Shown: positions 15,392 through 64,000 of the stretch, in pieces | Layout of the letters: every line of letters starts with the position of its first letter | Numbering within the stretch: position 1 is the first letter of the stretch | Origin: the human T2T-CHM13v2.0 reference genome, Homo sapiens | Reading direction: 5' to 3' | Assembly: GCA_009914755.4 (NCBI GenBank) | Contig: CP068257.2 | Coordinates: 29,440,001 to 29,504,000, forward strand | DNA length: 64,000 bases | Position numbers and translations under genes: made by a program | Notes under the pieces: model-generated | What the model was told of the DNA's origin: nothing | The model's database searches: none | What the model saw: only the letters and a program-made list of their open reading frames with translations

Positions 15392-16503
15392 TGCGTCCGG
15401 AATTGGTGGCTTCTTCGTCTCACTGACTTCAAGAATGAAGCAGCAGACCCCCGCGGTGAGTGTTACAGTTCTTAAAGATGGTGTGTCTGGAGTTTGTTCC
15501 TTCTGGTGGTTTCGTGGTCTCGCTGACTTCAGGAGCGAAGCTGCAGACCTTCACGGTGAGTGTTACAGCTCTTAAAGGCTGCACGTCTGGAGTTTCGTTC
15601 CTTCCGGTGGGTTCATGGTCTTGCTGGCCTCAGGAGTGAAGCTGCAGACCTTCGCGGTGAGTATTACAGCTCATAAAAGCGGCGCAGACCCAAAAAGTTA
15701 GCTGCAGCAAGATTTATTACAAACAGCAAAAGAACAAATCCTCCACAGCATGGAAAGGAACCTCAGCGGTTCGGGTGGCCTGCTTTTATTCCCTCATTTG
15801 GTCCCACCCACATCCTGCTGATTGGCCCATTTTACAGAGAGCTGATTGGTCCGTTCTACAGAGAGCTGTTCGGTCTGTTTTGACCGAGTGCTGATTGGTG
15901 CGCTTACAAATCTTTAACTAGACACAGAGTGCTGATTGGTGCGTTTACAATCCTTTAGCTAGACACAAAAGTTCCCCAAGTCCCCACCCGATTAGCCAGA
16001 CACAGAGCAATGATTGGTGCGTTTACAAACCTTTAGCTAGACACAAGTGCTGATTGGTGCATTTACAATCCTTCAGCTAGACGGAAAAGTTCTCCAAGTC
16101 CCCACCCCGCCTACAAGCCCAGCCGGCTTCACCTCTCTCTGGCACTCCCATGGGTCTTTGCGGCACCTAGCCTGGGCACTCCCGCAGCCCGGACGGAGCT
16201 CGTTCCGGATCAAGCCCAGCGGACACCTGCCGGCCGCGCCAAGCGCAGAGCCCGCCGAGCCCGCGCCCACCTGGAACCGTGCCGGCCTGCGAGCGCCGTG
16301 CGCAGCCCCGGCTCCCGCCCGCGCCTCTTCCTCCACACCTCCCCGCCAGCAGAGGGAGCCGGCTCTGGCCTCGGCCAGCCCCAGAGAGGGGCCCCCACAG
16401 CGAAGCAGCGGGGTGAAGGGCTCTTGGAGCAGGGACAGAGCGGAGGCCAAGGCCGAGGAGGCGCCAAGAGCGAGCGAGGGCTGCTAGCAGTTGCCACCTC
16501 TCA
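15392..16503 (+). mobile_element. Solo LTR12 (ERV9-family LTR), full-length form with a GC/CpG-rich 3' segment; flanked by a 4-bp TSD GTAG
   Basis: Begins TGcgtccggaattggtggc; three gctgacttca.ga..gaagc.gcagacc..c.cggtgagtgttacagctc blocks; the tgctgattggtgcgtttacaa.cctttagctagaca repeats; a GC-rich region at 16120-16490 (CpG-dense, e.g. ccggccgcgccaagcgcagagcccgccgagcccgcgcccacc); ends ccacctctCA. GTAG occurs at 15388-15391 and 16504-16507. Inserted into an L1. Confidence 0.75.
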
Positions 16504-16530: not shown

Positions 16531-16807
16531 GGGGTGCAGTGGTTCACGCCTGTAATCCTAGCACTTTGGGAGGCCGAGGCGGGCGAATCACCTGAGGTCA
16601 GGAGTTCAAGACCAGCCTGGCCAGCATGGTGAAACCCCGTCTCTACCAAAAATACAAAAATCAGTCAGGTGTGGTGGGCCACACCTGTAATCCCAGGTAC
16701 TTGGGAGGCTGAAACAGGAGAATCGCTGAACCTGGGAGGCAGAGGTTGCAGTGAGCTCCAGCCTGGGCGACAGAGCAAGACCCTGTCTCAGAAAAAAAAA
16801 AAAAAAA
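16531..16807 (+). mobile_element. Alu with 11-bp TSD, inserted at the LTR12/L1 junction
   Basis: ggggtgcagtggttcacgcctgtaatcctagcactttgggaggccgaggcgggcgaatcacctgaggtcaggagttcaagaccagcctggccagc...gaaaaaaaaaaaaaaaa; TSD AAAACTTTATT at 16517-16527 and after the poly(A). Confidence 0.92.
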
Positions 16808-25994: not shown

Positions 25995-26334
25995 TAGTTT
26001 TCCAGCCTGAGCAACCTGAGAGAAGGTGAGGCCATTTACTGAGATGACGGAAGAAGATAAAGTGAAGGTGGAAATGATAAGTTCAGTTTGGGACATATTG
26101 GCCTTGAGGGGCTTTGTAAATTTTCAGGTTCTGAGGCTCCAGTGGTGGCAGCAGCAATCACCCGTGGCCTTGTGTGTGGCACCCAGCATCTGTTCTAATT
26201 CCATCCATCACCAGCTGATTCTCATTTCCCAAGCCTTTGTTCAGGCTATCGAACTCCAGGGATCTGAGTTACCCTCTCCTATTCCTAAACACTGTCCCCA
26301 GCCAAACCCCACTTAACCTAATTACTAGGCATGT

Positions 26335-26440
26335 GAGCCTGGGCAAACCGCTTCACTGCTCTAGGCCTCGGTTCCTCATCTGTAAAATGAGAGGGTTACA
26401 AAATATGACGTCCAAGGGTCCTTCTACGTCCATTCTGGTT
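26335..26440 (+). mobile_element. MIR fragment
   Basis: gggcaaaccgcttcactgctctaggcctcggttcctcatctgtaaaatgagagggttac matches the MIR core (..gggcaagttacttaacctctctgtgcctcagtttcctcatctgtaaaatgggg). Confidence 0.5.
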
Positions 26441-26690
26441 CTAAATAAAATGCGGCACTTTGCTGATCCACCGCGAGAGGGCACCAGAGAAACGTCCTCG
26501 CACAGGACCGCGCTGAAAGTGCCCCGAACCAGCCAGGCACGGTACCAGGCGGGATGCTGTGAGGGAGGTGGAAATAAGGTGGAACGCCATCCTTCCGCAT
26601 CCTTCCGCATCCTTCCTACTCGGGCAAACCCTTAGATCTGGGAAAAACGTTCGATAAGCAGCAACCGCAGCCAACATTCTATTTATCCCC
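26440..26690. promoter_or_regulatory. Small CpG-rich repeat-free block (about 15 CpG in 250 bp) containing a 10-bp tandem triplet CATCCTTCCG
   Basis: ccaccgcgagagggcaccagagaaacgtcctcgcacaggaccgcgctgaaagtgccccgaaccagccaggcacggtaccaggcgggatgctg...ggaacgccatccttccgcatccttccgcatccttcctactcgggcaaaccc...aaaacgttcgataagcagcaaccgcagcc. CpG density is far above the surrounding CpG-depleted sequence. Function unknown. Confidence 0.3.
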
Positions 26691-46154: not shown

Positions 46155-48112
46155 CGCCCAGACACTTTTCGTTATTTTTATTGTTTGACAAGCATTTACA
46201 ACGTTCCATTCATAGACCTAAAAACATAAAAATAGACCTTCTTTCAGCTTATAAAAGAAATATATAAGAACTTTTGACATAGACACGTCATGACCTTATG
46301 TACAAGAGACAATGGCACCCTCTCCAAGCACCAGACTTCCGAGTGTTTTCAGATGGATGTGTTGCACTGGAGCCAGTAAATGCGACGATTAGAAGCCTCT
46401 GCTTCCGTTTTCCATCTGGACGCGATCGAACCGGAGATGATATGGAAAAATGCAGTGATACAAAGGGTATAGAAACCATTCTAAAGCTTTTTCAGAAAAC
46501 CAGAAGATATAGCAAAAATTTAATAGAATAAAACTTTCAAAAGATCAAGCTCGAAGCCCTGGAAACCCGAAAGGCGGGGGGAATACAGGGTGGGAACGCA
46601 GGAAAAGCAGGCAGAGGCACAAGAGCATGATGTACTGAACTCTCTATTGTCTGGAAATATAAAGTCATAACTGATTTTTATAAAATATAACTCCTAAAGC
46701 TACTATAAAATTCAGGTCTTTAAAGTACCTACTGATGTGTCAAACACCAAATAGATATTTTCCCCAAAAAGAAAGTTTTCATAGTATTTTAAACCCTTCT
46801 TAGGAAGTGGACATTGTGACATGGGAAAAGAAAAAGCTATAAACCTTTTTTTAAAAAAAAAAAAAAAATTGAAAGTGCTATAACTTGTTTTTCTTCTTAG
46901 TATTTGGATATCTGTTTAGACTGTTAATGTTTTGAGCATGTTTACCCTGTTTCGTTGGCATGAAGAAAGTGTTAAACACAAGAGAAGTTTTTAAAGAGGT
47001 TGTTCTGTTTAAAGGTTTGGTTATGGACTGTCAGGGAAGGGGAAGGTAATCTATGGATGAAGATGCAATTTTGATGGAAAAACCAATGATCACCATGGCA
47101 ACCCCATGAGAAGGAGGCTCCCCTCCCTGCCATGTGCAACAGACACACACACCGCCCACCGGGGTGTCATGTTTAATCCAACCAAACTCCCATCTCAAAT
47201 ATAGATTCAAACATTAAAAAAAAAAAATCCGCTTTTTGGAAGAAAAGTATATCCTTCGCATGAGCTTGCTGGCCTTTCATATATAAATATAAAACCACCA
47301 CGCCTCACTCTCTCTGTAAAAGGTTATATCCTCATTTTTTAGGCTCAGGGATACATACACTAACACTGTAAAATTCTCATCTATTTGTGCCCCTGTATCT
47401 CAGGTAAAATACAAAAAATAGTGTTTCTTTTCTTTCTCTCAAGCGATAAATTTGGATCTCTTTTCAAAGAGTTTGGCATCTCTATAATTCTATGCAAAAC
47501 TAGAGCTTCCGAACATGGACACAGAGTAAGACCAGCCATAGACCAAAACAGGAAGGAAAAAAAAAAAGAGGCTCATTGAAACATGAATCGCCACCCTCTC
47601 CTCACACATTCTTAAAATACACGGAGATTCTCAGACATGGAAGAGGGAAGGGTACAGTCAGAACACGGCAAGCTGTACACATTTCATTTTGTGTGTGAAA
47701 GAGGTTTCCCCAGCTAGGAGACTGATTTCAGATAGAAGGATCGTGTGTGTGCTACTATCCCTTAAATTAATCTGTTGTACATCCGTTAACTCCTGGGGTG
47801 ATTTGCTTTCCAGTGCTATAGAATCTTTTTTCTTTTAATTGTTCAGGCCCTGATTTATTGAGAATAAATAAAAGCCCTTAGTAATATACAGAAGATAGGA
47901 CTCAAGCTTATTTGGGATTCTGATCAATTCTTTCTGATGTTGTTGAAAATGACAAAGTTGGGTGGCTACATGGCTTCAGAACCAAGTCAGCTGCCAAAAC
48001 CGTGTGTGCAAGAGCGCGACCTAAGGGGACATTCTTGTCGACGGTACAGGAGGGTGGGCAGAGTTAGGGCAGGAAGTATCTACACACATTCTCTACGGGG
48101 CAGGTGACGCAG
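46155..48112 (-). other. Probable 3' UTR of the minus-strand gene (repeat-free, about 2 kb) with two candidate poly(A) signals
   Basis: Contiguous with the stop codon at 48113-48115. This is the longest repeat-free stretch in the window. Minus-strand AATAAA equals plus-strand TTTATT at 47853-47858 (implying a ~280-nt UTR) and at 46177-46182 (implying a ~1.95-kb UTR). A CpG-retaining sub-block lies at 46300-46480 (..cttccgagtg..gcgacgattagaagcctctgcttccgttttccatctggacgcgatcgaaccggagatg..). Confidence 0.4.
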
Positions 48113-48598
48113 TCAGATCTCAGTGTTCAGTTTCCTGGAGGGGGCAAAGTCTTCACGCCTAACCCAAATGACTTCCTCGCTTGCGCTCTCCAGGCCTCCA
48201 TTGATCCCCGACAGGGCAGCTTGCTTCTTGAGCTGTGCCATGCGGGACGCGTGACTATCCAGGGTTTTCCGGCCTCTTTCCCGCTGACTGATGGAGGTGG
48301 CCTGAAGCCGCTCCTGCAGGTCTCTGTCCACTGAGGCACCCTTCACGGACTCACAGAACTCATCATCGTCACTGAGGATGTCTGTCTCCTTGATGTCATC
48401 TTGCTCCTCATACTGAGCAAGATCAAACTGCTCCTCTACCCATCGGTCAGTGTCCCCACCACCGGGGGGCTGCTGGGACTCTCTCTCCGGGCTGCTTGCG
48501 GAGACGGCATCAGAATCAATGGTAAACCTGTTTCGAGCCAGCCGCCGCCTCCTCCTCCCAAGAGACTTGCTTGGGGCAGACACTGCACACACACACAA
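48113..48598 (-). CDS. Candidate 3'-terminal coding exon of an unidentified minus-strand protein-coding gene. It encodes a ~160-aa C-terminal tail: (V)SAPSKSLGRRRRRLARNRFTIDSDAVSASSPERESQQPPGGGDTDRWVEEQFDLAQYEEQDDIKETDILSDDDEFCESVKGASVDRDLQERLQATSISQRERGRKTLDSHASRMAQLKKQAALSGINGGLESASEEVIWVRREDFAPSRKLNTEI*
   Basis: A 161-codon open frame, the only long ORF in the window that is not repeat-derived. It begins directly after a polypyrimidine tract plus AG (minus strand ..ttttatatttttgtgtgtgtgtgcag|TGTCTGCCCCAAGC..; the AG is at plus 48599-48600) and is in phase 1. Stop TGA at 48113-48115. It is GC- and CpG-richer than its flanks. It contains an acidic Ser/Asp/Glu cluster and a basic R5 stretch. 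The ORF-track start codon is a bacterial-table artefact (TTG inside the intron). Confidence 0.6.
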   Translation of the reverse strand: MCVCAVSAPSKSLGRRRRRLARNRFTIDSDAVSASSPERESQQPPGGGDTDRWVEEQFDLAQYEEQDDIKETDILSDDDEFCESVKGASVDRDLQERLQATSISQRERGRKTLDSHASRMAQLKKQAALSGINGGLESASEEVIWVRREDFAPSRKLNTEI

Positions 48599-51500
48599 AA
48601 ATATAAAAATAAAACCCCCACATGCTTTACGTGAGATGAAAATCCAGAAAGCAAAGGACAGGAGAAAATAAAAACCAAAACGGTATGCATTGAATGCCTT
48701 GATGTCTTTTGGGGCTTAAAGTCTACATATCACCAATCTGTCATGGAGCATTTACCTTGTCGAGGTATCTGGACTTAGAGGATGTTCTAGCAACTGATGC
48801 AAGGGCAAGGGGGAACCGGGGCACACAGGAGAGGTTGTAGGTTATGGGCAAAGGGGCACTCAACTCCCTCTGAAATAATCTACTGTTCTAGCCTGTGCAC
48901 CTAAGAGATGGGTAACACAGACAGCAGCTGCTCTCAAGTAGACAGACCACTGATTTGGGGATCAGTTAGTGAGTTAGTGTCCTCAATCCTGGCCATGTCC
49001 CATGGCCCAGTGCTATGAAGATCCCCAGGGCTGTCCCAGGGTTGTTTAGCTGGAATAGGTCTTTAGTAAGGGTGGGGGTGCATCTATGGTTTTGCTGTCT
49101 TTGTAGAATGTGCATCAAGGAGGCAGAAGCACCAGTGTAAGTTACTTGTTTTCTGGGAACTGGAACATAACATTTCTTGGGATCTGCAGTTAGATTAAGG
49201 GCACCACGTCACTCTTAGAGAGCCTATGAAAAAGAGTGGCTCTCAAAGACATGGGATCTTCAGTTATTTCCCTGTCTTCTTTCTGACAAAGTCCCACATG
49301 AGCTAGGAAGCTAAGCAAATGTGTGCCTTAGTCTCCCCCAATTACAGTCTGTGTATCACTCATTCTTCTCCAAAGCAATTAACATATCAGTGCCTCATTG
49401 GAATGAGAAATAAAAAACCGATGACATCCAAGCAGTTTGATCAACAAAGTGCTGTATAAAGTGACTACCAGTTAAGAAAAATTCATTCTTTCACCTACTG
49501 CCCTCTAGGAAGCCAGAATTAAAAACAAGCAAACAAAAGACACCATCCGATCAAGCCAACAATCCCACCACACACATACACGAGACTGCTCACAGGGAAG
49601 GCTTCTGCTTCTCCCTCGAGAGTGAAGCGGTTGTTGCATTAGACACGAAAAGGTGAAATGCAACACGGGCTTTCCAGTGGAGGGGAAGAGTCTCAACGCC
49701 AACTGGGAGCTGCTTTCCTGAAACCTAAGCCCCAGAACCATCCAATTGCTTCAGTGCTGCTAGAAGATGCCTCGTGTCTCAATTACTGCCAAATGCAGCC
49801 TTGACTTCGAACCCAGCAGGCACAGGGTTAGAGTGGTCAACGAGGGGCTGAATTGGCTCTCATGGCAGCCATCCTCTGCTTCAGACCCCTGCGTGTCCAT
49901 CACTATTCCTGAGTGTTCCGCCATCTAAAACTGTGGAACAAATGGACACTACTGTTGGTTGAGGATGGGAATAAAAGCCATTTCCAGGCAAAATGGAAAA
50001 AGGGAATAGAAAATAGGAAAAAAAACAAACAAACTCCGACTTCTATTGAGAAGAGACAAAAATTCTTGTTCACTTTTATCTCAGCACCAGCAAAATACAG
50101 CATCCCTCTCTCCAATCACCACATTAGAACTACCCCAACTCAAAGCTACTGGAAATATTTGTTAATGATTTGCATGCTGAAGTATCTAGGAGTAAAGTGT
50201 GTTAATGTCTACATCTTTGAAATATGTCAAAAATAAGATGAGGTGATGGATGACAGATGGATTCTAACAGATGAGTGATAATGAGAATATAGAAAAACAT
50301 TATAGAATATAGATGGTAGGTATGAATTCTTTCAGCTCTTCTATAAGTTTAAACATTTTCATAAGAAAATAGATAGAACAAAGAAAAAAATTTTTAATTG
50401 GGTTATTGGCAAACGTATAGTACTTTAGGCTGAATATGGAAGCAGAGTATTTGGCTTTACTATCCTAGCCAAACAGAACAGAGGGAGAAATAAACTACCT
50501 GAGTATTCAAGACAAAGCAAAATGAAGCATGAGTATCTGTTCCTAGTATGCTTAAGAACCCGGCTACCATTATTGGGTTCTTCCCAGTCTTTCAGGGATG
50601 CAATCTTTGACTATTTCCAGTGGTCACTGTTAAGACTGACCAGCTATGCTGTGCTGATCTACTCAGGCACCATTTTAAAATCCTCTGACATGAAGATTCT
50701 GAGGATAGTGAGATGCCTCCAAACAAAGTGATACAGACTTTCTTCAGCCAAAAATGAGCCATCAGGCAGAAAGATCTTTCAATCAGCTAAATCCAACAGG
50801 CTATGACATCAAGGCTTTCTCTTGGTAATCATGACGGACGATGGTGTTAAATTGTGGGCTGGTTTTGTTTTCTTTCCAAATGGATCTCAGCAGGAAAACT
50901 TCTGAGTGACAGACTAACCATGCTTAGTTTCAAAGTAAATGCAGCTCTGAATTTAGGTTCATTGATTAACAACTGAAACAGGTTGAGTTCCCTGAGGTTG
51001 AGACACATATTCCCAAACCTTTTTAAACATTTCCCTAGCAAACAAGAGGGGCAGATAAGACAAATCCAAGATAAAAATCTCTAAAGTGAGTTATAAAGGA
51101 CCAATAAACTATTCTTCCATGGCGACCCCATGCGAAACTGCGCATATGGACGTATGAAAGACTCTTAGGATACATCAGAAAACTCAGCAAAGTGCTGGGT
51201 GTTCACTGCACTAAGTTTTCAACAAACATTTATCAATTGATTGGAGAAGAGGTTTACAGTAACTAGTCCCCTAAATTAAATTTAAGGTGCTTGAAGAATG
51301 TAATATCCCATGTCAAGCCAGGTAGGTTTTGTCTATGAAAACCTTCAAGCATTCACACTTCTGTCCATCCCTCTTCAATAGGTAGGATGGTAATGGGTAC
51401 AAAGGCCAGAAACTTTTCTGGCAAGTGCAAAGGGGGCCTTCTTTTAATGAAATCCTCCCTGCAAAATTCTGGGCTGCCTCTTAAGAAAGGTTTGATAAAA

Positions 51501-53275
51501 ATGTTAGTATCTTGATGTCATTAAGTCCCTAAGTATTAAAACAGCCTTCTTCCTAGATACATTTTGCTACCATTGACAGGTGGCAGTATTTATTTTATTT
51601 CTCTATTGCTCCACTGTAATGGATTAAGTCCTACAAGAATATTTATGCTGGGACCATTTAAACTCTAGATTCTTGTTTCCAAGAATAGCTCGAGGCTTCC
51701 CCAAATTAACATGGAGACTAAAAATAAAGTTGCAGGCACAAGGTCAGGATAAAAACTGGAAGTGCCATGTGGGCTACCAAACCTAGAATCCTTACTACTG
51801 AGAGCAGGCATTGCTGTGCTGCCAGGCCGTGAAGCCACCATGTTCTCAGAACAGAGGGCTGTGACCTTGCTGAAATGTGACACACGGCTTTCTGCTAGAC
51901 AAAGCTGGCTGTCATGCAAAGCAGCGACTCTCATTCTGCAAGCAGGCTGAGACAGCCTCTCCAGAAAGAGGATGTGTCTGCAACCCGACTTGGCAAATGA
52001 GGGAGGAGCTCACCAGCCAAAAGGAGAAGGGAGGCAAAGGGAAGGCTTGAGGGAGGACAAGAGGAATGTAGATACAGGGCGGATCCCCAGGAGCCACTGG
52101 GAAGGAGGCAAGGGCAAGGAACCTCACACCAGGGAAAAACCGTCCTCCTACATCAGCCCCCACCAGGCCACACCTCACCCCCACTCAACAAGGAGGTCAA
52201 GCTCACTGGAGTTCTACTGCGGAGTGGGGGTGACGGGAATCTTGAACGTCCGAATCCCCACAGTACCTGCCCTGCTCATGGCCGGCCTGGCCCCCTTCAG
52301 TGCACACAATCTTTTGCCTCCAAAAGGGACATATTGCTGGGATGAGGGAAGGCTCTCGGTTTTGAGGAGCTGTCTTCTGTGCTTATCACGCAGGATTGAA
52401 TGCACAGCCTTTAGGAAATCCTTTCGGCTCTCTGGGGAGCTAGGAAAAGAAGATTTACAGATGTTAGAGAATCAGGGCTTAACACATGGGGAACTTCTAA
52501 GGTTATCAGGTGCAACCAAATAAATATCCCTTAGGGCCAAAGGCTAAAGACTGAGGCCTTGACTCCAATTTCTATGCTGAGCGGTGATTTCACGCCAGTG
52601 ATAAAGAGCACATAACTCCTTTCCCTTCATGCTTTGTGATCTATCTCCTGGCGCTGATGTGGGGCAGAGTAGCCCATTAACGAACAGATCTATGGACAGT
52701 GGGAGTTTGTACCAAGAAGCTGCCAAATTCTGCTCCTGGCACTCAAGGCAGAGTTTTTCATTATAAAATGTTTTTGAGGGCAAATGAACCACAAGATTCT
52801 TGCGGCTCTGCAGAGCACCCAAAGGCCGACGTCTCAACGTCCTAATGTCCTCTAGAGCTGAGCTCCCTCCTGGTAAATATCAATGGTTCCCATGACACAT
52901 TTCAACATGTATATATTAAGGCTGTAAAGAACTATAAAATCTTCCCAAGTCCTAATTCTCATGGTTAAAAAAAAAAAAAAAAAGTGCTTCCTAGGAAGAG
53001 TTATTTTTCTTATTATATTCCCAATATTTTTACCCAGGTAAGTTTTACCTGGTATTCCCTATTAACAATAAATACGGCATCCGTGTAGGCAGGGCTACTA
53101 AACCCCATGGACCTTACCAACAAAATCACAAACAGATGAGCCAAAATAGACGGTAAAGGTGGTGCTCAAACCCCACGAGGTTATACAAACAACATTTCAC
53201 TTATAGTCCTGACAGCTTCCCGGGGATCTGCCTTTTGTTGACCTCTGTCACCCAACACAGAGAGATCTGATGTAG

Positions 53276-53644
<369 letters not shown>

Positions 53645-53704
53645 TAGGCTAAGTACCATCTCTAAGCCTTGCTTCCCCATTTGTAAACTGGAGTAAGAAT
53701 TGTA

Positions 53705-53810
53705 TTAGGTTGGTGCAAAAAATAATTGCAGTTTTTGCCATTAAAAGTAATGGCACTTTTAATTACTTTTAATGGTAAAAACTGCAGTTTCTTTTTGTAC
53801 CAACCTAATA
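53705..53810. mobile_element. MADE1-type mariner-derived palindromic MITE (about 105 bp, expanded central region)
   Basis: attaggttggtgcaaaaaataattgcagtttttgccattaaaagtaatggcacttttaattacttttaatggtaaaaactgcagtttctttttgtaccaacctaat is a near-perfect inverted repeat matching the MADE1 consensus TTAGGTTGGTGCAAAAGTAATTGCGGTTTTTGCCATTAAAAGTAATGGCAAAAACCGCAATTACTTTTGCACCAACCTAA. Confidence 0.85.
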
Positions 53811-54005
53811 CCTTGGTCTGACTAAATGAAATAATGAATGTAAGGTGTTTAGCATAGTTCATGCTTGGTAAAGGTACCTTCTTACCATACTAACATTATA
53901 AAATATTGCTAATAATCATAATATTGATTCTATTGTCTTTTGTAGGTAATCCATAGTATATTAGTACTCACTGTGTGAGGTACTGGGTAATTACTGAGTA
54001 AATCA

Positions 54006-54404
<399 letters not shown>

Positions 54405-54810
54405 TCATCTATCTTGTATTTTTAGAAAAATAAAAGAATAGGTTTCATATGGGAGAAGACCTCAAATTCTCATGGCGGAGGGAGAGAATACAAGGAAGGG
54501 CAAAAGAGGGTGGCAGGGTAGAAGAAAAACAACAAGAAATAAGTAGAAGCCCACATCATGAGCCCAGCTTCCCCTCAAGACGTGCAGGTGATCAACACAG
54601 GCTGACCTCCATATGTGCTCCAAATGATCAGGAATCCCGATAACACCTTCACAAGCTGTCAGCTCCTCCCAGCTGACTCTCCATTTACTGCATCTCAGTG
54701 ATGTTACAGTACAAACAACGTACCAAACACCAGAACACAACGTAAGACACCAAACCGTTCCAATCTGCAGAAATGTCAACACGGCCTCGACTTTACAGGC
54801 CCAGGCTCAC

Positions 54811-54898
54811 CTGCAGCACAAGTGAAAGACCCTCTCCGGCCTCCCTTCAGACTCGGATTTTACATGGACAATTTCACACACGGCATTTGCCTCTGCAT
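54811..54898 (-). CDS. Candidate internal coding exon (88 nt) of the minus-strand gene: ..(D)AEANAVCEIVHVKSESEGRPERVFHLCC..
   Basis: Minus-strand acceptor ..cattgttgttttaatttctttag|ATGCAGAGGCAAATGCCG.. and a strong donor ..TTGTGCTGCAG|gtgagcctggg. Only one of the three frames is open. Its entry phase matches the exit phase of the 57959-58061 exon (the junction codon G+AT gives Asp). It retains CpGs and is repeat-free. Confidence 0.45.
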
Positions 54899-55135
54899 CT
54901 AAAGAAATTAAAACAACAATGAATCAGGGTATGTTTCAAGTGGATTTATTTACATGTTTGCAAAAGCATTTTTCAGCTGTGATAGAGGATTAATAATGCA
55001 GAACACTGTATAAGATCAAAGATATTTTCCTACTATTTCACAATCTAAAGAGATGAAGCGACTGAAAGCTTAATGGATGCAAAGAAGAGAACACTTGGAA
55101 AATTTCCAGTTGGTAAAATCTTCTAGATGGTCTAA

Positions 55136-55460
<325 letters not shown>

Positions 55461-57140
55461 CTGAACTCACTCTTCCAGCCATGCAGTCTGGTTAACTGAA
55501 CTGTGCATTTCAATTAAATGATTAATTGTTTTGGCAACAGTTGGACTCAGTGGAGCCAAAGCCTCCTATGCAGATTTCATCCGGCCAGGGATACGACAGG
55601 TAAGCCTTTGCTGTCTGTTAAGGGAGGCTTCCCCCAGGTGGCTGGGCCTAAAGCCCTGGAGACCTAATTGGGTTTCTCGTCCCCAGCCTACCCCTGGAGT
55701 CTGCTTTGAACACAGCAGAAAATGGTATATCAAGAAGGTAAGGGACAATTTTAAAATAATTTTGAAGCTCTGTAGTGCCTATAATAGCACAGTACTTTAA
55801 GTCATGAATAAAGTGTTTGTGAAAGGAACAATTCACTGCAGACATTCAGGCCATACATTGTGAAGTCTCACTTTTATCCAGTGGTTCAGAACCCTGGTCA
55901 CAAACCCTCACTGTGGTTGCATGATTTAACCCTAACCAGAATCTATCTGCAAAAAATTGTACAAACTTTCCAAACTAAAATAAAAACCTAGAAATTCCAC
56001 GTTGTGATTCTCAAATCCACTAGAGTGGATTTCATAATGAAAGACATCTTGACTAGCCTTTATAACTCAACTAAAATAAGCTTTTATCTTGATGGTTTTA
56101 AACTTGACTTGAATGAAAAATAGAGAGTGAGAATGGAATGTCGTATTACAAAGATGGCTTTGTCTTCAAAATTTGAAGTTTTTATGTGTTTACTCCTCAA
56201 CGCAGGCGAAATTCCTGGCTTAGAAGCTGTCAGTTTGCTACAGAAATAAACTTTCCCATTTGTAAACCTGGCATGAGGAAACAAAGGAACTAGATAATTC
56301 ATAACCTACGATTCTAAGTAAGACTTTAGTATTTAAGTGCTCAAACCTCAAAATGCTATGTATTGCTGCCCTAGACTCACAACTTACAGGTGCCTGCAAA
56401 TTCATATATAAATCAATTTTGCAAATCACATCATAAGTAAAAGGGCATCCGGCAAATCTCTACTGGAAGCTTAGAGAGAAACCTTCTAAAACAAATAATC
56501 ATTCCAAATATATTTGCCCTACATGGTTTTTGCATTTGAGTTTTCCTACTGTAAGGCAGAAAAACTGTGAAGGAAGAGATGCCTCATTTAATTTGGAAGA
56601 GTAACTCAAAGTGTGCAAAATATGGCAAGAGGGTTCTCCTCATGACGTTGGACTAGGGTGGGTTGGTTTTCTGAGGATCAGATCCAGTTTTACTGCTTAT
56701 GACAAGTGGAAACAAGGAGGCTAAAAAACAGAAATTGGATAGTAGGAACTTGTAGATGCCAAAAGCATAAAATAGAAATTCTCTTGATCATGCACCTGCA
56801 GGTCTCTACCACCAAGGCTTTTCTTTACCAAAGCTGCACCTGCTGTCCAAGTGGGACAGGGAACAGATGTGGCTAAAGAGTTTCCATTTGACTCTCCAGA
56901 GATGCTCATTCCAGGATGTGCCTGGGAGAGCCACACAGTCCATTCCTCCTCTTGAGAACTTGGCTTCAAATTAGGCCCAGGATGGGGAGCTTCTGGGTCA
57001 CAGAAATATCACTTTTCTTAGTCAGTACCCCTGCTACTCATGTGTTTCAAGCATCGTCTAATTATATTATGAAGTATACTTATAGCTACCCAACAACTCA
57101 CTTCACTGCTATGTGGATCACAGAAAAAGAATCAACATTT

Positions 57141-57435
57141 CAGGTTGGGCATGGCAGCTCACGTCTGTAATCCCAACACTTTGGGAGGCCAAGGCGGGAG
57201 GCTTGCTTGAGCCCAGGAGTTCAAGCCTAGCCTGGGCAAAATAGCAAAACCCTATTTCTACAAAATATTTAAAAAATTAGCTGGTTGTGCTGGCACATGC
57301 CTGTAGTCCCAGGTACTTGGAAAAGATAGCTTGAGCCTAGAAATTTGAGGCTACAGTGAGCTATGATAGCACCACTGCTCTCCAGCCTGAGCAATGGAAT
57401 GAGACCCCATCTTTAAAAAAATTAAAATCAATGTA
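57141..57435 (+). mobile_element. Alu (old, AluJ-like) with 17-bp TSD
   Basis: ggttgggcatggcagctcacgtctgtaatcccaacactttgggaggccaaggcgggaggcttgcttgagcccaggagttcaagcctagcctgggcaaaatagcaaaaccc...; TSD AAAAAGAATCAACATTT at 57124-57140 and at about 57437-57453. Confidence 0.9.
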
Positions 57436-57720
57436 AAAAAGAATCAACATTTTAAAAGCCTTCACACTAACAGCAAAGATAAAGATTTGTAATACTTTAG
57501 GGAAAAAACATGTGTAGTCAATGCTTTTTAGTGCTTTTGGTGGTATTTTTGGATCTCTCAGTTGAAAGGCAAGTGAGTAGTTTATGTGGGCTTTGTTTGC
57601 TCAGTCTCAAGGATTCTTTCAAGAAGCACAGGCTCACTGTACTCAGGTGGTAGTCACTATAGTATTAATCTATAGAATAGAATAACTAGAATCTTTTCCA
57701 GGAATTTTGAAGACATTACA

Positions 57721-57772
57721 CATCCATTCACTCAGTTCATTCATTCACTTGGTTCATTCATTCATTCATTCA
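57721..57772. repeat. (TTCA)n tetranucleotide microsatellite
   Basis: catccattcactcagttcattcattcacttggttcattcattcattcattcaat. Confidence 0.85.
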
Positions 57773-57958
57773 ATATTTAATCAATGGCTGGGTAAATAAG
57801 AGGCAATAGAGAGACCGAGAGACAAGAGAGTTAAGCATAGGGAAAAAAAAAAAAAAAAGACGGTAGAAGAGTTAGACCAAGAGTGTGGATTCAAACAAAT
57901 AATTCCTACACACATCAGAAATATGTGTGTGAAATACCCAGCACAGGTGAGAGTTTAC

Positions 57959-58061
57959 CTGCACTCGCCAAAGCTCGAACCTGCAGCGCTTCCGTGGGGA
58001 TCATGTGTCGAAATCTGAAGGGGTCCCAGTCCTCATAAATGGAAAGCCTGTGAGATCCTAC
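57959..58061 (-). CDS. Candidate internal coding exon (103 nt) of the minus-strand gene: VGSHRLSIYEDWDPFRFRHMIPTEALQVRALASA
   Basis: Minus-strand acceptor ..ggttccttctcctctgcag|GTAGGATCTCACAGG.. and donor ..TTTGGCGAGTGCAG|gtaaactc. Only one frame is open (both others have stops). 5 CpGs in 103 nt. Phase-compatible with both the 58636-58694 exon and the 54811-54898 exon. Confidence 0.5.
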
Positions 58062-58635
58062 CTGCAGAGGAGAAGGAACCAGCTGCATAAGAAGAATCTA
58101 ACCTGCCCCGGACCAGTTCCCTGCATTTTCTAAACCAGCGACAGACTCTCACGCAGTAACTCTAGGCGTGCCCAAAGGATCTTCACCCCCATGAGCTCCT
58201 GTCCATCCAGCAGGAAGTGAGAGGCTGCGTGATAAATACGTTGAGGGGAGGGTGTGCAAAGAAGTTTGCTAAGCAAATGCAGTGAAGAGAGACACACAGA
58301 GAAGAGGAGAAAAAGGATCCCAAAAGAAGAACAGGGGCAACAGAGAAGGGGAAAAGTAGCGTTAGGAAGGTTCTGGGCCATGGCAGACCCAATCACCAAT
58401 TGAGTCCAGTTGGTTCCAATTCACAAAAATGAGACCAATTCATGTTTGTGCTCTAAACATAAGCCTGCCTGAAAAGATGGCAGGATGAGTGATCTCAAGC
58501 ATCCTTAGCAATGCTTAAGAAAGAAAAAAGATCATAAAAAGGCTCATACTGACAAAATGGTAGAATTATGCAGGCATAACTGATAAGCAGATAGAGAAAT
58601 AGTTTCAAACCATGGGGTAACATAAGATGTCTTAC

Positions 58636-58694
58636 AAGTTTCTTCTTCTGTTTGGAACCATCTTTATACACAAGGACCACAGCAGTTTTGAAGA
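58636..58694 (-). CDS. Candidate internal coding exon (59 nt) of the minus-strand gene: ..FKTAVVLVYKDGSKQKKKL
   Basis: Excellent minus-strand acceptor ..gtctttattttattttttccag|TCTTCAAAACTGC.. and donor ..GAAGAAACTT|gtaagacatc. The frame that is open ends on a codon boundary, matching the phase-0 start of the 57959-58061 exon. A second frame is also open, so the reading frame is inferred from that junction. Confidence 0.4.
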
Positions 58695-59469
58695 CTGGAA
58701 AAAATAAAATAAAGACAGTTATGGTATGTCATGTGTAGGGTTTTCCCCTTGACATCACCAACTTGTGGTAATAAACACTACAGTTATGAAGAGGACGTTG
58801 AGATCCCAGTTAACTGACTCCCACCCACCTTCCATTCATTCATCACATCTGTGAAAATCAAAAGCCTATTGAGACACAAGTTTCCAGGTTCAAAATAAAC
58901 ATAGAAAGCCTACATAAATGGAATTAACCTATGGCCCAAAAAACTTTTGCGTAAAATATGTTAGGTATGATACAATTTCAAGGTTAAAACTTCAGCTGAT
59001 ACATATTCAACAAAAATGTACTAATTCAGTAGATGGAGGAATAATATAAACGTCTTTCACAATAACAATGCAATTGCTGAAGATGATTTACATTTATGCA
59101 AATTAAGGTAATAGTGCACATAGACAGTGATAATTTAGGAAATATAACTCATCTTTTGACCTAAAGAAACAAAAATGAGTTTATGAAATAGAATTCAACT
59201 GTATGTCTTCCAGAATGACTGAATCAGGTAAGCTCTCTAGGAGTGGTAAACATGTAGTTTCATTCTTATATTCTTTCGGGGGTGGGGAGATACAATGGAG
59301 TTATGCATAATCTTCCAGAGAATTTGTTAAGCAATGCCAAGCACATTTAACCTGCAGTGATTCTGATTCTTCCTAGAAGGGTAAGTAGAGTTGGCACCCA
59401 GAAGGAATAGAAGGGTGACTGACTCCTGCCTGTCCTTTGTTCTCTGTGTCAGCGTCTCTGCTATGGTCC

Positions 59470-59775
59470 AAATGTTTGTGTTTCCCCAAAATTCATACCT
59501 TGAAACTAATCACCCTTGTGATGGTTTCAGGAGGTGGGCCTTTGAGAAGTGATCAGGCCCTGAGGACTCTGTCCTCATGAATGGGATGAGTGTCCTTATA
59601 AGAGACTTGAGAGAGATGCCTTGACCCTTTCGCCATATGAAGCCACAGCTAGGAAGTAGGAGAAAGCAGGATCTTGGACTTCCAGCCTCCACAACTGTGA
59701 GAAATAAATCTCTGTTGTTTGGAAGCTGGCCACTTTATGGTATTTTGTTATAGCAGCCCAAATGGACTAAGATAG
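59470..59775 (+). mobile_element. MLT1-type MaLR LTR fragment
   Basis: ..gtccttataagagacttgagagagatgccttgacccttt.gccatatgaagccacagctaggaagtaggagaaagcaggatcttggacttccagcctccacaactgtgagaaataaatctctgttgtttggaagctggccactttatggtattttgttatagcagcccaaatggactaagata matches the MLT1 3' consensus (..cttggacttccagcctccagaactgtgagaaataaatttctgttgtttaagccacccagtctatggtattttgttatagcagcc..actaagaca). Confidence 0.6.
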
Positions 59776-61533
59776 TCTCCATTATCCCTTCATACTGACC
59801 CCAAGGAATAGCCCAGTCACACAGCGGCTGAAGGAGGCACAGCCTTGTACACCAGACACAGAATTACAAAAGGAACAAACATTCAGAGAATTCTCAGGGA
59901 TGGGCCACCAGGCTCACAGGCCCTTTGGAGGCCAACTGGAAGTATCTGGTTCAATTTCTATCCTACGGAGGGCAGGTCGGTCTTGTCTCCTCTTTGTGTA
60001 AGATCATGCTAATCTCCACTGCAGGGAAATAAGCGCTGAGATGCAAAGAAACTGACTCCAGCCACTCGGTCTAGACTGCCCATAGCCCTTCACACCTCAC
60101 AGCATCTGACCCCTCAAGGTTCCCAGAGCACAGACTGGCAGGTTCCCCACAAAGGTTCACACTGACCCGAGGAGGCCACACCAGCTCTTCACAGCAGCTG
60201 AGCACAAGCAACCTGAGAAGGCCTTTTATTCCCACTATGAAGCCTTCAGAAATCAGAGAGGCTGGGACAGCTAGGTCCTCTTAGAAATGAAAGAGCTCTA
60301 CCCCAATGACTCTAATCTCAGAAGCGCCACCATGCCACTGGGACCACAGCTCAATGCTATGATTCCCTCGATTTCCCTCAATCTTAACCATTGTGGATCA
60401 CAGCAGGAGGGCCAGAAAGTGAGCTTCAGCCTGGCACCGGGACCTCAGCCTCTCCCTTAAACTTTCCCTAATCCTCGGAGCTAGTGTTACTCAAGTGACT
60501 CCACAGTGTTGCCCGATCCCTTCAGACATGGCCTTGATGATCTCCAAAACTCATGCTACCTTTGCCAGCCTAAAGCATCCACTCTGTGCCCCAAAACGTG
60601 AATGTCAAATACCCTTCAAGGCAGAAGGCTATTTCTATTTTTGTTTGTTTCTGTTTAAGGCAACAATCACCAACATTTGGTACACATGAGCCATCCTGTG
60701 AAACATCAAGGCGCTTCGTTGGCAGCAAGTCAACTTCGGTTTCAGAAGAAAGCTGCACTATTTCCTGAGGTTAGAGGTTTAAACCAAAACAAGACAACCA
60801 CATTTTAACCCCAAATCTGCCGACTGAGGGTAACCATGATCCTTCCTTCACAGCACCTCTTCCTTATTTCAACTCCTTGCTCAGCCTTTCTGCTAGTTCT
60901 GCCTTGCTACTTGAAATCACACCCAAACCATCAAACTTGTCTCTTTAACGGCTGGGAATCCACAGAAGCTCATCATGACTACAGCCTTTGTTCATAATCC
61001 CAATTTTAATCCTTCCCCTTCTCTTTCCTATTACTCTGGAGAGGATTCTGAATAATGATAAACACGTCTTGTACCTCAGAGCCTTCAGTTTTTCTCTTAT
61101 GAACTACAGCCCCTATTGAGTTTGCTGACAGTGTGATGCCCATGAAGCTGGAGTATGCAGTCTCCATTTACACCAGGGACAGGTGCTGTGGGCCCGCCTT
61201 CCTGGAGACAGCACCCACACCGACTTCTCATAAACAGCCCAGGAGGCAGGGAACAGAGTAATGTAGAGTCCACTATCGGAGCCTGTGCAGAAAGTGGTAC
61301 CTAAATCCCCAACCTCAAAACCAGCATTTTCCTGAATCACTTACACCATGGGTTGGCAAACAAGGGCCCTCAGGCCAGACCCAGGCCTGCTGCCACCTGT
61401 GTGGTGCAGCTGCTGATCCAGCCATCTCATTCATTTACATGTTATCTAGGGCTGCTTCTGGCTCCAGTGGCAAAGCATGTGGCCTCTTGGCCCAAAGCCT
61501 AAAATGTACTATGTAGCCTTTAACAGAAAAGAG

Positions 61534-61875
<342 letters not shown>

Positions 61876-62194
61876 CTACTTAAATTATTTTCTTATTCTA
61901 AATCTCTTGATTTCTAACTACAGTGAATCTGTAAAACTGAGGGCAAAGCCATGAAAAATCTAAATGTTGACCTCTATGACTGCTAGTCTGTAGTCCCACA
62001 TCACTGTGTGGGTCATTTACATCAATATCCTGCATCCCATGAATGACCCATTAAGCAGCATCCAGGAGATCCCAGACTCCTCCAAGAAGAAATCACTATA
62101 GAAGAAACACAAGTGGTGATGTTGAAAAGAAAGCAAATACTACTTCCCCCCTCCCCCAAAACACCTACCCCATCAAAAACTAACAACTTGTTAA

Positions 62195-62578
<384 letters not shown>

Positions 62579-64000
62579 TGACCTCAACAGCTACAGGGGC
62601 TCTTTGGAAATTTTGGGAATATTAGTAACTTTTCAATGAAGGCTAAGTCATTGAAATACAAAGTCCAATGGATCTTTGCATTAAATACTTTGATTTTAAA
62701 ATCACTAGGACATTCCATTTGGGGATACTTTGTTCACATCATGGAGGAAAAAAAAAAGTTTAGTTAAGAAGGAGAAAGCAACCTCCGTTCCCAGCAAGCC
62801 CACAAAAATAATATAAGGCAAGAGAATAAGGCAGATTTCCATTATATTATGTTCCTACCCATGAGTCTTTTAGCAAGAGGCTAGGACAAAACGCAACCTA
62901 AAACAAAAGCATGGAGTGTTGATAGTTTTATATTCATGAACAACACAGCAATATGCCAATAAGCATTTACATTGCAACAACAAGCTATGTTTCCTAAATT
63001 ATATGCTAACCCATGTTTTTTCTCTCTCTCAAAAAGCATATTACAATACAATCACATGAGATCTCTAATTGCAGCAATTGCATCCATCTAAACTGGTTTA
63101 TTAAAAAATAAGTCATTCGCAAACATCTCTAATTTCACTAGTATTGAGTGGCAATGCGATTGGGATGCACCTCACAGCTGATCCAGGCACTCCAGAGTTG
63201 CCACAACAGCTCAGCTGAGAACCAGCATCCTAAATCCTGGCCTTAAGACCAAACAGCAACAAAGTCAGGAAGCAAATAAAAGATCTAGGACTGGGGGGTC
63301 TCAGAAACAGAGGCCATTTTGTCTTGATTTTTCACTTTATTTTTCCTTGGTTTATAATTAACCCATTATTTTGAAAAGACACGCAGAGCAGCAGCCAAAA
63401 AAAAAAAAATTCTTTTCCTGCCTCTGTGTTTATGTCTGGGATAGACTTGGGCACAGCCATTTCCGCCCACCCATGTGGCTGAGTGACCACATAGGGCAAT
63501 TTAACTCGAAGGTTTCATTTAGTGTTTGTGAGATGTTGGTGGCTACGGCAGGAAGACCGATTCAAGTAACTGCAATTAACTTTATTTTTAATCAATTGGG
63601 TCTTGAAAAAGAAATGTTCTTGTTTTGAAAACTAAGCTAGACTTTTCCCCCTCCATAAAACGCTTTTCTGATACACACCGAATGCTGCCAACTCTGGTTC
63701 CTTTTTCCACTTGCCCAGCGAGGCCGGCGGGTTCAGCCAGATCACGGTAGTGTGCAAAAGCAGGTCTCCCATGCTCAGATCTGCAACCTGAAAGCCAGAG
63801 ACGTGACAAAGCTTACTGGGTGGTGTTATCAATACTCAGATTTTCATGATGTTTGAAAATTCAGCATGCTGATATTAATTTTACTTCAAGAAAATACTGC
63901 TCCTAAAAACATTTGCTTAAATATGTGAGATAATGCTAAGTTAAACTGCTGGATTTAGCCATTCCACAATGTAACATATCAAAACATCATGTTGTACACC

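What the first reader, a model, noticed from the sequence alone, without database searches (positions are those of the whole stretch)
48113..58694. Four splice-consistent exon candidates define the 3' end of an unidentified minus-strand protein-coding gene
Most of the window is repeat sequence, but four repeat-free, CpG-retaining segments on the minus strand each have a canonical AG acceptor and GT donor and exactly one long open frame. These are 58636-58694, 57959-58061, 54811-54898 and the terminal exon 48113-48598. The first three splice to each other in matching phase. The concatenated peptide is ..FKTAVVLVYKDGSKQKKKL|VGSHRLSIYEDWDPFRFRHMIPTEALQVRALASA|D|AEANAVCEIVHVKSESEGRPERVFHLCC.., followed by a ~160-aa acidic serine-rich C-terminal tail. 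I could not match this peptide to a protein I know, so I give no gene symbol.
Basis: seen in the sequence. Interest (0 to 1): 0.7.

Follow-up and report, generated by a model that had tools for sequence, protein, structure and literature searches.

The report
3' end of the TIAM1 gene
The four "exon candidates" are real exons of a well-known gene, TIAM1 (a Rac1 activator), in a primate genome.

Summary
The finding is real and ordinary. The minus strand of 46.1-63.8 kb carries the last six coding exons and the about 1.95-kb 3'UTR of TIAM1 (T-lymphoma invasion and metastasis-inducing protein 1).

- **Identity.** The spliced peptide matches Pfam PH_Tiam1 (E 2.7e-64). It is 144/148 identical to the solved mouse Tiam1 DH-PH structure 1FOE.
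- **Orthology.** All six exons have the same lengths and AG/GT boundaries in the vole Tiam1 locus. dN/dS is 0.038.
- **Transcript support.** An orthologous cDNA contig joins exons A-B-C-D-E exactly at these boundaries.
The three internal exons (58636-58694, 57959-58061, 54811-54898) are exact.
- **Misplaced boundary.** The terminal exon starts at 48582, not 48598. Position 48598 is only the limit of the open frame and has no AG in front of it.
- **Missed exons.** A 173-nt exon at 52267-52439 was missed, and it restores the reading phase into the last exon. A sixth exon (63679-63787) lies upstream of the reported range.
- **Function.** The exons encode most of the C-terminal PH domain of the Rac-GEF DH-PH cassette. 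They also encode the C-terminal tail, which contains the published Cdk1 site S1466.

Novelty: already known. Interest: low.

The parts
63679..63787 (-). TIAM1 coding exon A (109 nt; VADLSMGDLLLHTTVIWLNPPASLGKWKKEPELAAF + 1 base).
   Evidence: tblastn with P0067 and P0001. The acceptor is ...GGCTTTCAG and the donor GTGTGT. The vole has the same length and AG/GT boundaries. It is joined to exon B in cDNA contig L002.
58636..58694 (-). TIAM1 coding exon B (59 nt; (V)FKTAVVLVYKDGSKQKKKL).
   Evidence: 93.2% nt identity to vole with conserved AG/GT. 1foe_A alignment.
57959..58061 (-). TIAM1 coding exon C (103 nt; VGSHRLSIYEDWDPFRFRHMIPTEALQVRALASA + 1 base).
   Evidence: Junctions B-C and C-D are present in cDNA contig L002.
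54811..54898 (-). TIAM1 coding exon D (88 nt; (D)AEANAVCEIVHVKSESEGRPERVFHLCC + 2 bases).
52267..52439 (-). TIAM1 coding exon E (173 nt; (S)SPESRKDFLKAVHSILRDKHRRQLLKTESLPSSQQYVPFGGKRLCALKGARPAMSRA + 1 base). It encodes the end of the PH domain and the linker.
   Evidence: tblastn gives 100% identity over 58 aa. The acceptor is ...TTTTCCTAG and the donor GTACTG. The vole has the same length and boundaries, at 90.8% nt identity. It matches 1foe_A residues 349-377.
48113..48582 (-). Coding part of the terminal exon F (470 nt including stop TGA 48115-48113). It encodes the 156-aa C-terminal tail, (V)SAPSKSLGRRRRRLARNRFTIDSD...VIWVRREDFAPSRKLNTEI*. The true acceptor AG is at 48584-48583.
Evidence: 92.8% nt and 93.6% aa identity to vole Tiam1.
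48491..48493 (-). Codon AGC for the serine of S-P-E-R, a canonical Cdk1 consensus (S/T-P-x-K/R). It is residue 1466 when counted back from the stop in a 1591-aa protein.
   Evidence: Position arithmetic. Whalley et al. 2015, PMC4490568, report S1466 as the only canonical Cdk1 site of Tiam1, located C-terminal of the DH-PH cassette. The 1591-aa length is from my own knowledge.
46155..48112 (-). TIAM1 3'UTR, about 1.95 kb. The 3' end is approximate, placed about 20 nt after the poly(A) signal.
   Evidence: The blastn match to vole runs continuously from the last exon down to 46119 at about 80% identity. The MAFFT profile shows blocks at 93-98% identity.
46177..46182 (-). Distal poly(A) signal AATAAA, followed by a GT/T-rich stretch.
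   Evidence: It sits 1930 nt after the stop in the window and 1945 nt after it in vole. The 120 nt upstream are nearly identical between the two species.

Best explanation
The region is the 3' end of the TIAM1 gene in a primate genome, transcribed from the minus strand.

**Gene structure.** Six coding exons lie in the window: 63679-63787, 58636-58694, 57959-58061, 54811-54898, 52267-52439 and 48113-48582. They are followed by a 3'UTR of about 1.95 kb ending at a conserved AATAAA (46182-46177). Spliced together, they encode the last 333 residues of the protein.

**First 152 residues.** These form most of the C-terminal PH domain, Pfam PH_Tiam1 positions 20-170 of 170. This PH domain packs against the DH domain in the DH-PH cassette that catalyses GDP-to-GTP exchange on Rac1. 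That mechanism is established knowledge from the Tiam1-Rac1 complex 1FOE. The DH exons lie upstream, beyond the window.

**Last 156 residues.** These form a tail with a basic RRRRR patch, an acidic patch and the Cdk1 site S1466. Published work shows that phosphorylation of S1466 is needed for Tiam1/Rac-dependent activation of Pak1/2 at centrosomes in early mitosis.

**Shown versus inferred.** Shown here: exon boundaries, phases, protein identity, orthology and purifying selection. Inferred from the literature: the biochemical function.
For:
- **Solved structure.** PDB 1foe_A, mouse Tiam1, residues 230-377 aligned to peptide residues 1-148 with 4 mismatches, E 4.6e-93.
- **Database names.** The best database proteins are named T-lymphoma invasion and metastasis-inducing protein 1, at 96% identity over 100% of the query.
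- **Splice sites and frame.** All six exons have AG/GT sites, and the 1002-nt CDS is one open frame ending in TGA.
- **Vole ortholog.** Locus L001 is collinear, with exons of identical length and conserved AG/GT. dN is 0.0205 and dS 0.534, giving a ratio of 0.038. Of 104 differences, 83 fall at third codon positions.
- **cDNA evidence.** Contig L002 joins exons A-B-C-D-E at exactly these boundaries. Short cDNA contigs (P0004 and P0005, on contigs of 1889 and 1482 bp) encode the E-F junction uninterrupted.
- **Cdk1 site.** The SPER serine falls at residue 1466, counted from the C-terminus of a 1591-aa protein.
- **3' end.** The poly(A) signal and 3'UTR are conserved with vole.
- **Host.** About 30 Alu copies indicate a primate.
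Against: Nothing substantive.
- **Species.** It could not be determined with these tools, because no primate genome or RefSeq was available. Identity to the tamarin fragment P0067 is 100% over exons A-C.
- **Transcripts.** No transcript data from the source species itself were available. The junction evidence comes from orthologs.
- **Upstream exons.** The DH-domain exons are outside the window, so the full domain architecture was not seen here.
Confidence: 0.97

Rival explanations
1. The segments belong to the paralog TIAM2 (STEF) or another Dbl-family GEF rather than TIAM1.
For: Pfam PF23014 covers the second PH-like domain of both Tiam1 and Tiam2; UniRef names such proteins 'Tiam1/2 second PH-like domain-containing protein'.
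Against: - The peptide is 97% identical (144/148) to mouse Tiam1 in 1FOE.
- It is 96% identical over its full length, including the non-domain tail, to vole Tiam1.
- Every named top hit is TIAM1.
- The locus is collinear with the vole Tiam1 locus through introns and 3'UTR.
Confidence: 0.01
2. The segments are a processed or duplicated pseudogene of TIAM1, not the functional locus.
For: None specific.
Against: - The coding pieces are separated by introns of 0.6-5 kb with canonical AG/GT, so this is not a processed copy.
- The frame is intact over 1002 nt.
- dN/dS against vole is 0.038.
- Intron positions, the 3'UTR and the poly(A) signal are collinear with the vole gene.
Confidence: 0.01
3. It is a novel, unannotated gene, which is the reader's implicit possibility ('I could not match this peptide to a protein I know').
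For: None after searching.
Against: There are direct matches to a solved structure, a curated Pfam family and named NCBI and UniRef proteins.
Confidence: 0.005

Closest known systems
TIAM1 (T-lymphoma invasion and metastasis-inducing protein 1). Mouse Tiam1 DH-PH in complex with Rac1 is PDB 1FOE. The vole Tiam1 locus is JAATJU010019366.1.
   Same: - Sequence: 144/148 identical to 1FOE, and 320 of 334 codons (319/333 aa plus the stop) identical to vole.
- Pfam PH_Tiam1.
- Exon lengths, phases and splice sites.
- 3'UTR and poly(A) signal.
- Cdk1 S-P-x-R/K site at residue 1466.
- C-terminus ...SRKLNTEI.
   Different: There are only species-level substitutions, for example D for E at the EDW/EEW position, A for P in ALASA/ALPSA, and R for K in SPER/SPEK. 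There is no structural difference.
TIAM2 / STEF, and invertebrate Still life (sif): paralog and ortholog Rac GEFs
   Same: From my own knowledge they share the domain plan PHn-CC-Ex, RBD, PDZ, DH, PHc. The same Pfam family applies to the second PH-like domain.
   Different: The window is a near-identical match to TIAM1 proteins across both the PH domain and the non-domain tail, and all named top hits are TIAM1. I did not run a direct comparison with a TIAM2 sequence.

Membership tests
TIAM1 ortholog | Second (C-terminal) PH-like domain of the Tiam type (Pfam PF23014) above the curated threshold | tested here: met
   216.6 bits against a cut-off of 27, E 2.7e-64, profile positions 20-170 of 170.
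TIAM1 ortholog | Near-identity to experimentally characterised Tiam1 protein | tested here: met
   1foe_A (mouse Tiam1) residues 230-377 are aligned end to end, 144/148 identical, E 4.6e-93.
TIAM1 ortholog | Collinear genomic locus (same intron positions and phases, conserved 3'UTR) with an annotated Tiam1 gene of another mammal, under purifying selection | tested here: met
   Vole L001 has six exons of identical length with AG/GT. The blastn blocks are collinear. dN/dS is 0.038. The AATAAA is conserved.
TIAM1 ortholog | Non-domain C-terminal tail with the canonical Cdk1 site S1466 (S/T-P-x-K/R) | tested here: met
   The SPER serine is at peptide position 208 of 333, which is residue 1466 of a 1591-aa protein. 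The site is described in PMC4490568. The 1591-aa length is from memory.
TIAM1 ortholog | DH (RhoGEF, PF00621) domain immediately upstream of the PH domain, plus the N-terminal PHn-CC-Ex, RBD and PDZ domains | not testable with these tools
   These exons lie beyond position 64000. tblastn with DH-containing fragments found nothing upstream of exon A in the window. Orthologous cDNA and protein fragments (P0014, P0067) do carry PF00621 directly before exon A's sequence.
TIAM1 ortholog | Rac1-specific guanine nucleotide exchange activity | not testable with these tools
   This is a biochemical property. It is inferred from sequence identity to the protein crystallised with Rac1 (1FOE).
Human TIAM1 locus (chr21q22.11) specifically | Exact match to the human reference assembly and GENCODE exons | not testable with these tools
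   No human genome or RefSeq was available. A primate origin is supported by about 30 Alu copies and by 100% identity to a tamarin TIAM1 fragment over exons A-C.

The most novel reading that the evidence does not exclude
The intron after exon E (52267-52439) might be used to make a conserved short isoform. It has a weak but conserved donor (GTACTG). Its first 55 nt or so are highly conserved in mammals. Read-through adds 18 codons ending at a TAG conserved in five mammalian sequences (window GTVGIRTFKIPVTPTPQ*). Transcript-derived contigs from other mammals retain this intron. Regulated intron retention could therefore give a TIAM1 that keeps DH-PH but lacks the 156-aa tail with the Cdk1 site S1466.

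The more likely reading is that the conservation reflects a G-run intronic splicing enhancer supporting a weak donor, and that the contigs are unspliced pre-mRNA.
Probability: 0.1. Interest if true: 0.25.

Novelty: already known. Interest (0 to 1): 0.04.

Why it matters
It matters little scientifically. TIAM1 is a long-studied Rac1 exchange factor implicated in cell adhesion, migration and mitotic spindle assembly. Its gene structure is in every annotation.

The value of this check is practical. It names the gene and gives the corrected six-exon model for the window. It also shows that 'AG...GT plus an open frame' alone is uninformative: there are thousands of such intervals on either strand. 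Homology and cross-species conservation are what validate the exons.

Tried and rejected
- **Direct D-to-F splicing.** With the true acceptor at 48583/48582 the frame runs into a stop (VCPKQVSWEEEAAAGSKQVYH*), so there is a phase mismatch. That led to the search for the missing exon.
- **Splice consistency as evidence.** About 13,600 AG..GT open intervals lie on the minus strand and about 13,000 on the plus strand. After stricter filters the counts are 113 and 112. Two of the five true internal exons fail my 'strong' filter, so this criterion was rejected as evidence.
- **Rfam.** A gathering-threshold scan of the whole window gave no hits.
- **Pfam on other long ORFs.** I scanned 16047-16487+, 26237-26635+, 34640-35071-, 35118-35513- and 51972-52523+. 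None gave a hit, so they are probably repeat, GC-rich or antisense open frames.
- **Seal locus.** A look-up of the seal protein P0002, meant to supply a second orthologous locus, was not on record.
- **RRRRR patch as the nuclear localisation signal.** The published NLSs are at residues 269-298 and 684-710, outside this window, so I make no such claim.
- **Pfam Helicase_IV_N hit on the tail.** At E 0.078 it is below threshold and was treated as chance.
- **Processed pseudogene and TIAM2.** Both were rejected (see rival explanations).
Full report
**Observation**

I read the four claimed segments on the minus strand and translated them in all frames.

- **The three internal segments are as described.** These are 58636-58694, 57959-58061 and 54811-54898. 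Each follows a polypyrimidine tract plus AG and precedes GTAAG, GTAAA or GTGAG. Joined in phase, they give the quoted peptide.
The two bases before it are TT. It is the first TTG of the mechanical open reading frame.
- **The real acceptor is elsewhere.** It is the CAG ending at 48583, so the exon starts at 48582.
- **The phases do not match.** Exon 54811-54898 leaves two spare bases and the tail frame needs one. Direct splicing would run into a stop after 21 codons.
- **Segment 58636-58694 has two open frames, not one**.
- **Splice-consistent open intervals are not rare.** There are about 13,600 on the minus strand and about 13,000 on the plus strand. About 113 and 112 survive a strict acceptor and donor filter. 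That criterion alone carries no weight.

**Identity**

- It also hits PDB 1foe_A, mouse T-lymphoma invasion and metastasis-inducing protein 1, with 80/82 identical residues.
- A database search with the extended peptide returned proteins named TIAM1 from vole, seal, tamarin and other vertebrates. The best was 96% identical over 100% of the query.

**Completing the gene model**

- **Missing exon.** A tblastn with the expected linker peptide, recalled from memory and used only as a lead, found a 100% match at 52268-52441. The sequence shows the acceptor TTTTCCTAG and the donor GTACTG, which bound a 173-nt exon at 52267-52439. This exon takes two bases of phase in and passes one out, exactly bridging exons D and F.
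- **Upstream exon.** tblastn with database fragments P0067 and P0001 also revealed an exon at 63679-63787.
- **Assembled CDS.** The six exons concatenate to a 1002-nt open frame ending in TGA and encoding 333 residues.
- **Protein matches.** The peptide matches PF23014 over profile positions 20-170 of 170 (E 2.7e-64). It matches 1foe_A residues 230-377 end to end with four substitutions.

**Cross-species and transcript evidence**

- **Collinearity.** The vole Tiam1 locus (L001, 17.3 kb) is collinear with the window's minus strand from 63.9 kb to 46.1 kb.
- **Exon structure.** Every exon has the same length in vole, flanked by AG and GT. Nucleotide identity is 81-93%.
- **Selection.** Amino-acid identity is 319/333 (320/334 codons counting the stop). 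dN is 0.0205 and dS 0.534, a ratio of 0.038. Of 104 differences, 83 are at third codon positions (one search was a rougher first pass).
- **Junctions A to E.** A 1568-bp assembled contig from a public sequencing run (L002, carrying protein P0014) contains exons A-B-C-D-E joined exactly at my boundaries.
- **Junction E to F.** Short contigs encoding P0004 and P0005 span the E-F junction without interruption.
- **Net result.** Those checks were annotated or transcribed exons and coding conservation.

**3' end**

- Conservation with vole continues from the stop codon through about 2 kb.
- It ends just after an AATAAA at 46182-46177. That signal sits 1930 nt after the stop in the window and 1945 nt after it in vole.
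- The 120 nt upstream of the signal are almost identical between the two species.
- Some 3'UTR blocks are 93-98% identical.

**Host**

About 30 Alu copies, 70-92% identical to an AluY consensus recalled from memory, indicate a primate genome. The species itself could not be determined with these tools.

**How it works**

- **PH domain.** Exons A-E encode most of the PH domain, which sits directly after the DH domain. The DH-PH cassette is the catalytic unit for nucleotide exchange on Rac1. This is established knowledge from the Tiam1-Rac1 complex, PDB 1FOE.
- **DH exons.** They lie upstream of the window. The orthologous fragments P0014 and P0067 carry PF00621 immediately before exon A's sequence.
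- **Tail composition.** Exon F encodes a 156-aa tail with a basic RRRRRLARNR patch and an acidic EEQ...DDDE patch.
- **Cdk1 site.** The tail also holds the motif S-P-E-R. Its serine is residue 1466 counted from the C-terminus of a 1591-aa protein (the length is from memory).
- **Published function of S1466.** Whalley et al. 2015 (PMC4490568) identify S1466 as the single canonical Cdk1 site of Tiam1, located C-terminal of DH-PH. It is needed for Rac/Pak1/2 activation at centrosomes and for normal centrosome separation.
- **Nuclear localisation signals.** The published signals lie elsewhere in the protein, at residues 269-298 and 684-710 (PMC5425402). I assign no such role to the RRRRR patch.

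**Rivals**

- **TIAM2 or another GEF.** This is excluded by near-identity to Tiam1 across both the domain and the tail, and by locus collinearity.
- **Processed or duplicated pseudogene.** This is excluded by the introns, the intact frame and dN/dS of 0.038.
- **Novel gene.** This is excluded by the direct matches.

**Verdict**

This is an already known gene. The interpretation, the 3' end of a minus-strand coding gene, is supported. Interest is low.

**Side observations**

None changes the verdict.

- **Intron after exon E.** It has a conserved weak donor followed by a G-run. An 18-codon in-frame read-through ends at a TAG conserved in mammals, and several assembled contigs retain it. One of those contigs also retains another intron, which points to unspliced pre-mRNA rather than a dedicated isoform.
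- **Synonymous divergence.** It is lower in the last coding exon than in the PH exons (dS 0.31 against 0.94).
- **CpG island.** A 440-bp CpG island sits at 16041-16480, about 30 kb beyond the gene's end.

Noticed in passing
window 52213-52266 (minus strand), the intron immediately after exon E: The donor GTACTG is weak but conserved, and it is followed by a G-run (TGGGG). The first 55 nt or so of the intron are highly conserved between the window, vole L001 and cDNA contig L002. Read-through adds 18 codons ending at a TAG conserved in mammals: GTVGIRTFKIPVTPTPQ* here, and GTVGI(P/K/Q)T(F/Y)KIPVTP(S/T)PL* in P0014, P0012, P0049 and vole. It is not conserved in non-mammalian hits. Contig L002 retains at least 338 nt of this intron while exons A-E are spliced. 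P0012 also retains the intron before exon B, so unspliced pre-mRNA is the simpler reading. A G-run splicing enhancer is the likely cause of the conservation.
   Followed up: partly
window 48113-48582 compared with exons at 52267-63787: Synonymous divergence from vole is much lower in codons 153-333 (the linker and tail: the end of exon E plus all of exon F; dS 0.31) than in the PH-domain codons 1-152 (dS 0.94). This suggests extra nucleotide-level constraint, or a lower mutation rate, in the last coding exon, which continues into a conserved 3'UTR.
   Followed up: partly
window 46198-46297 and 46647-46746 (minus strand, 3'UTR): These 3'UTR blocks are 98% and 93% identical to vole, far above the intron level of about 71-77%. 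They are probably regulatory (miRNA or RNA-binding-protein) elements next to the poly(A) site. They have not been characterised.
   Followed up: partly
window 16041-16480: A small CpG island (440 bp, GC 69.5%, CpG o/e 0.72) lies about 30 kb beyond the TIAM1 3' end, next to an Alu (16532-16789). GC-rich ORFs on both strands have no Pfam match. It may be an unannotated or lncRNA promoter, or a GC-rich repeat.
   Followed up: partly
window 55808-56281, 61859-61957, 62563-62628 (introns): These intronic blocks align to the vole locus at 71-80% identity in collinear order. That is near the level expected for neutral alignable DNA or ancient repeats. No coding signal was seen, and cDNA L002 skips them.
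   Followed up: no
window 1-46000 and the introns: About 30 Alu copies on both strands are 70-92% identical to an AluY consensus and cover 11.7% of the window. Translations at 34640-35513 (minus strand) look like a retroelement remnant but had no Pfam hit. Rfam found nothing in the window.
   Followed up: partly
window 51972-52523 (+ strand): A 183-aa ATG-initiated ORF lies antisense to exon E and its conserved flanks. It has no Pfam hit and is most likely a by-product of the conserved, stop-poor sequence on the opposite strand.
   Followed up: partly
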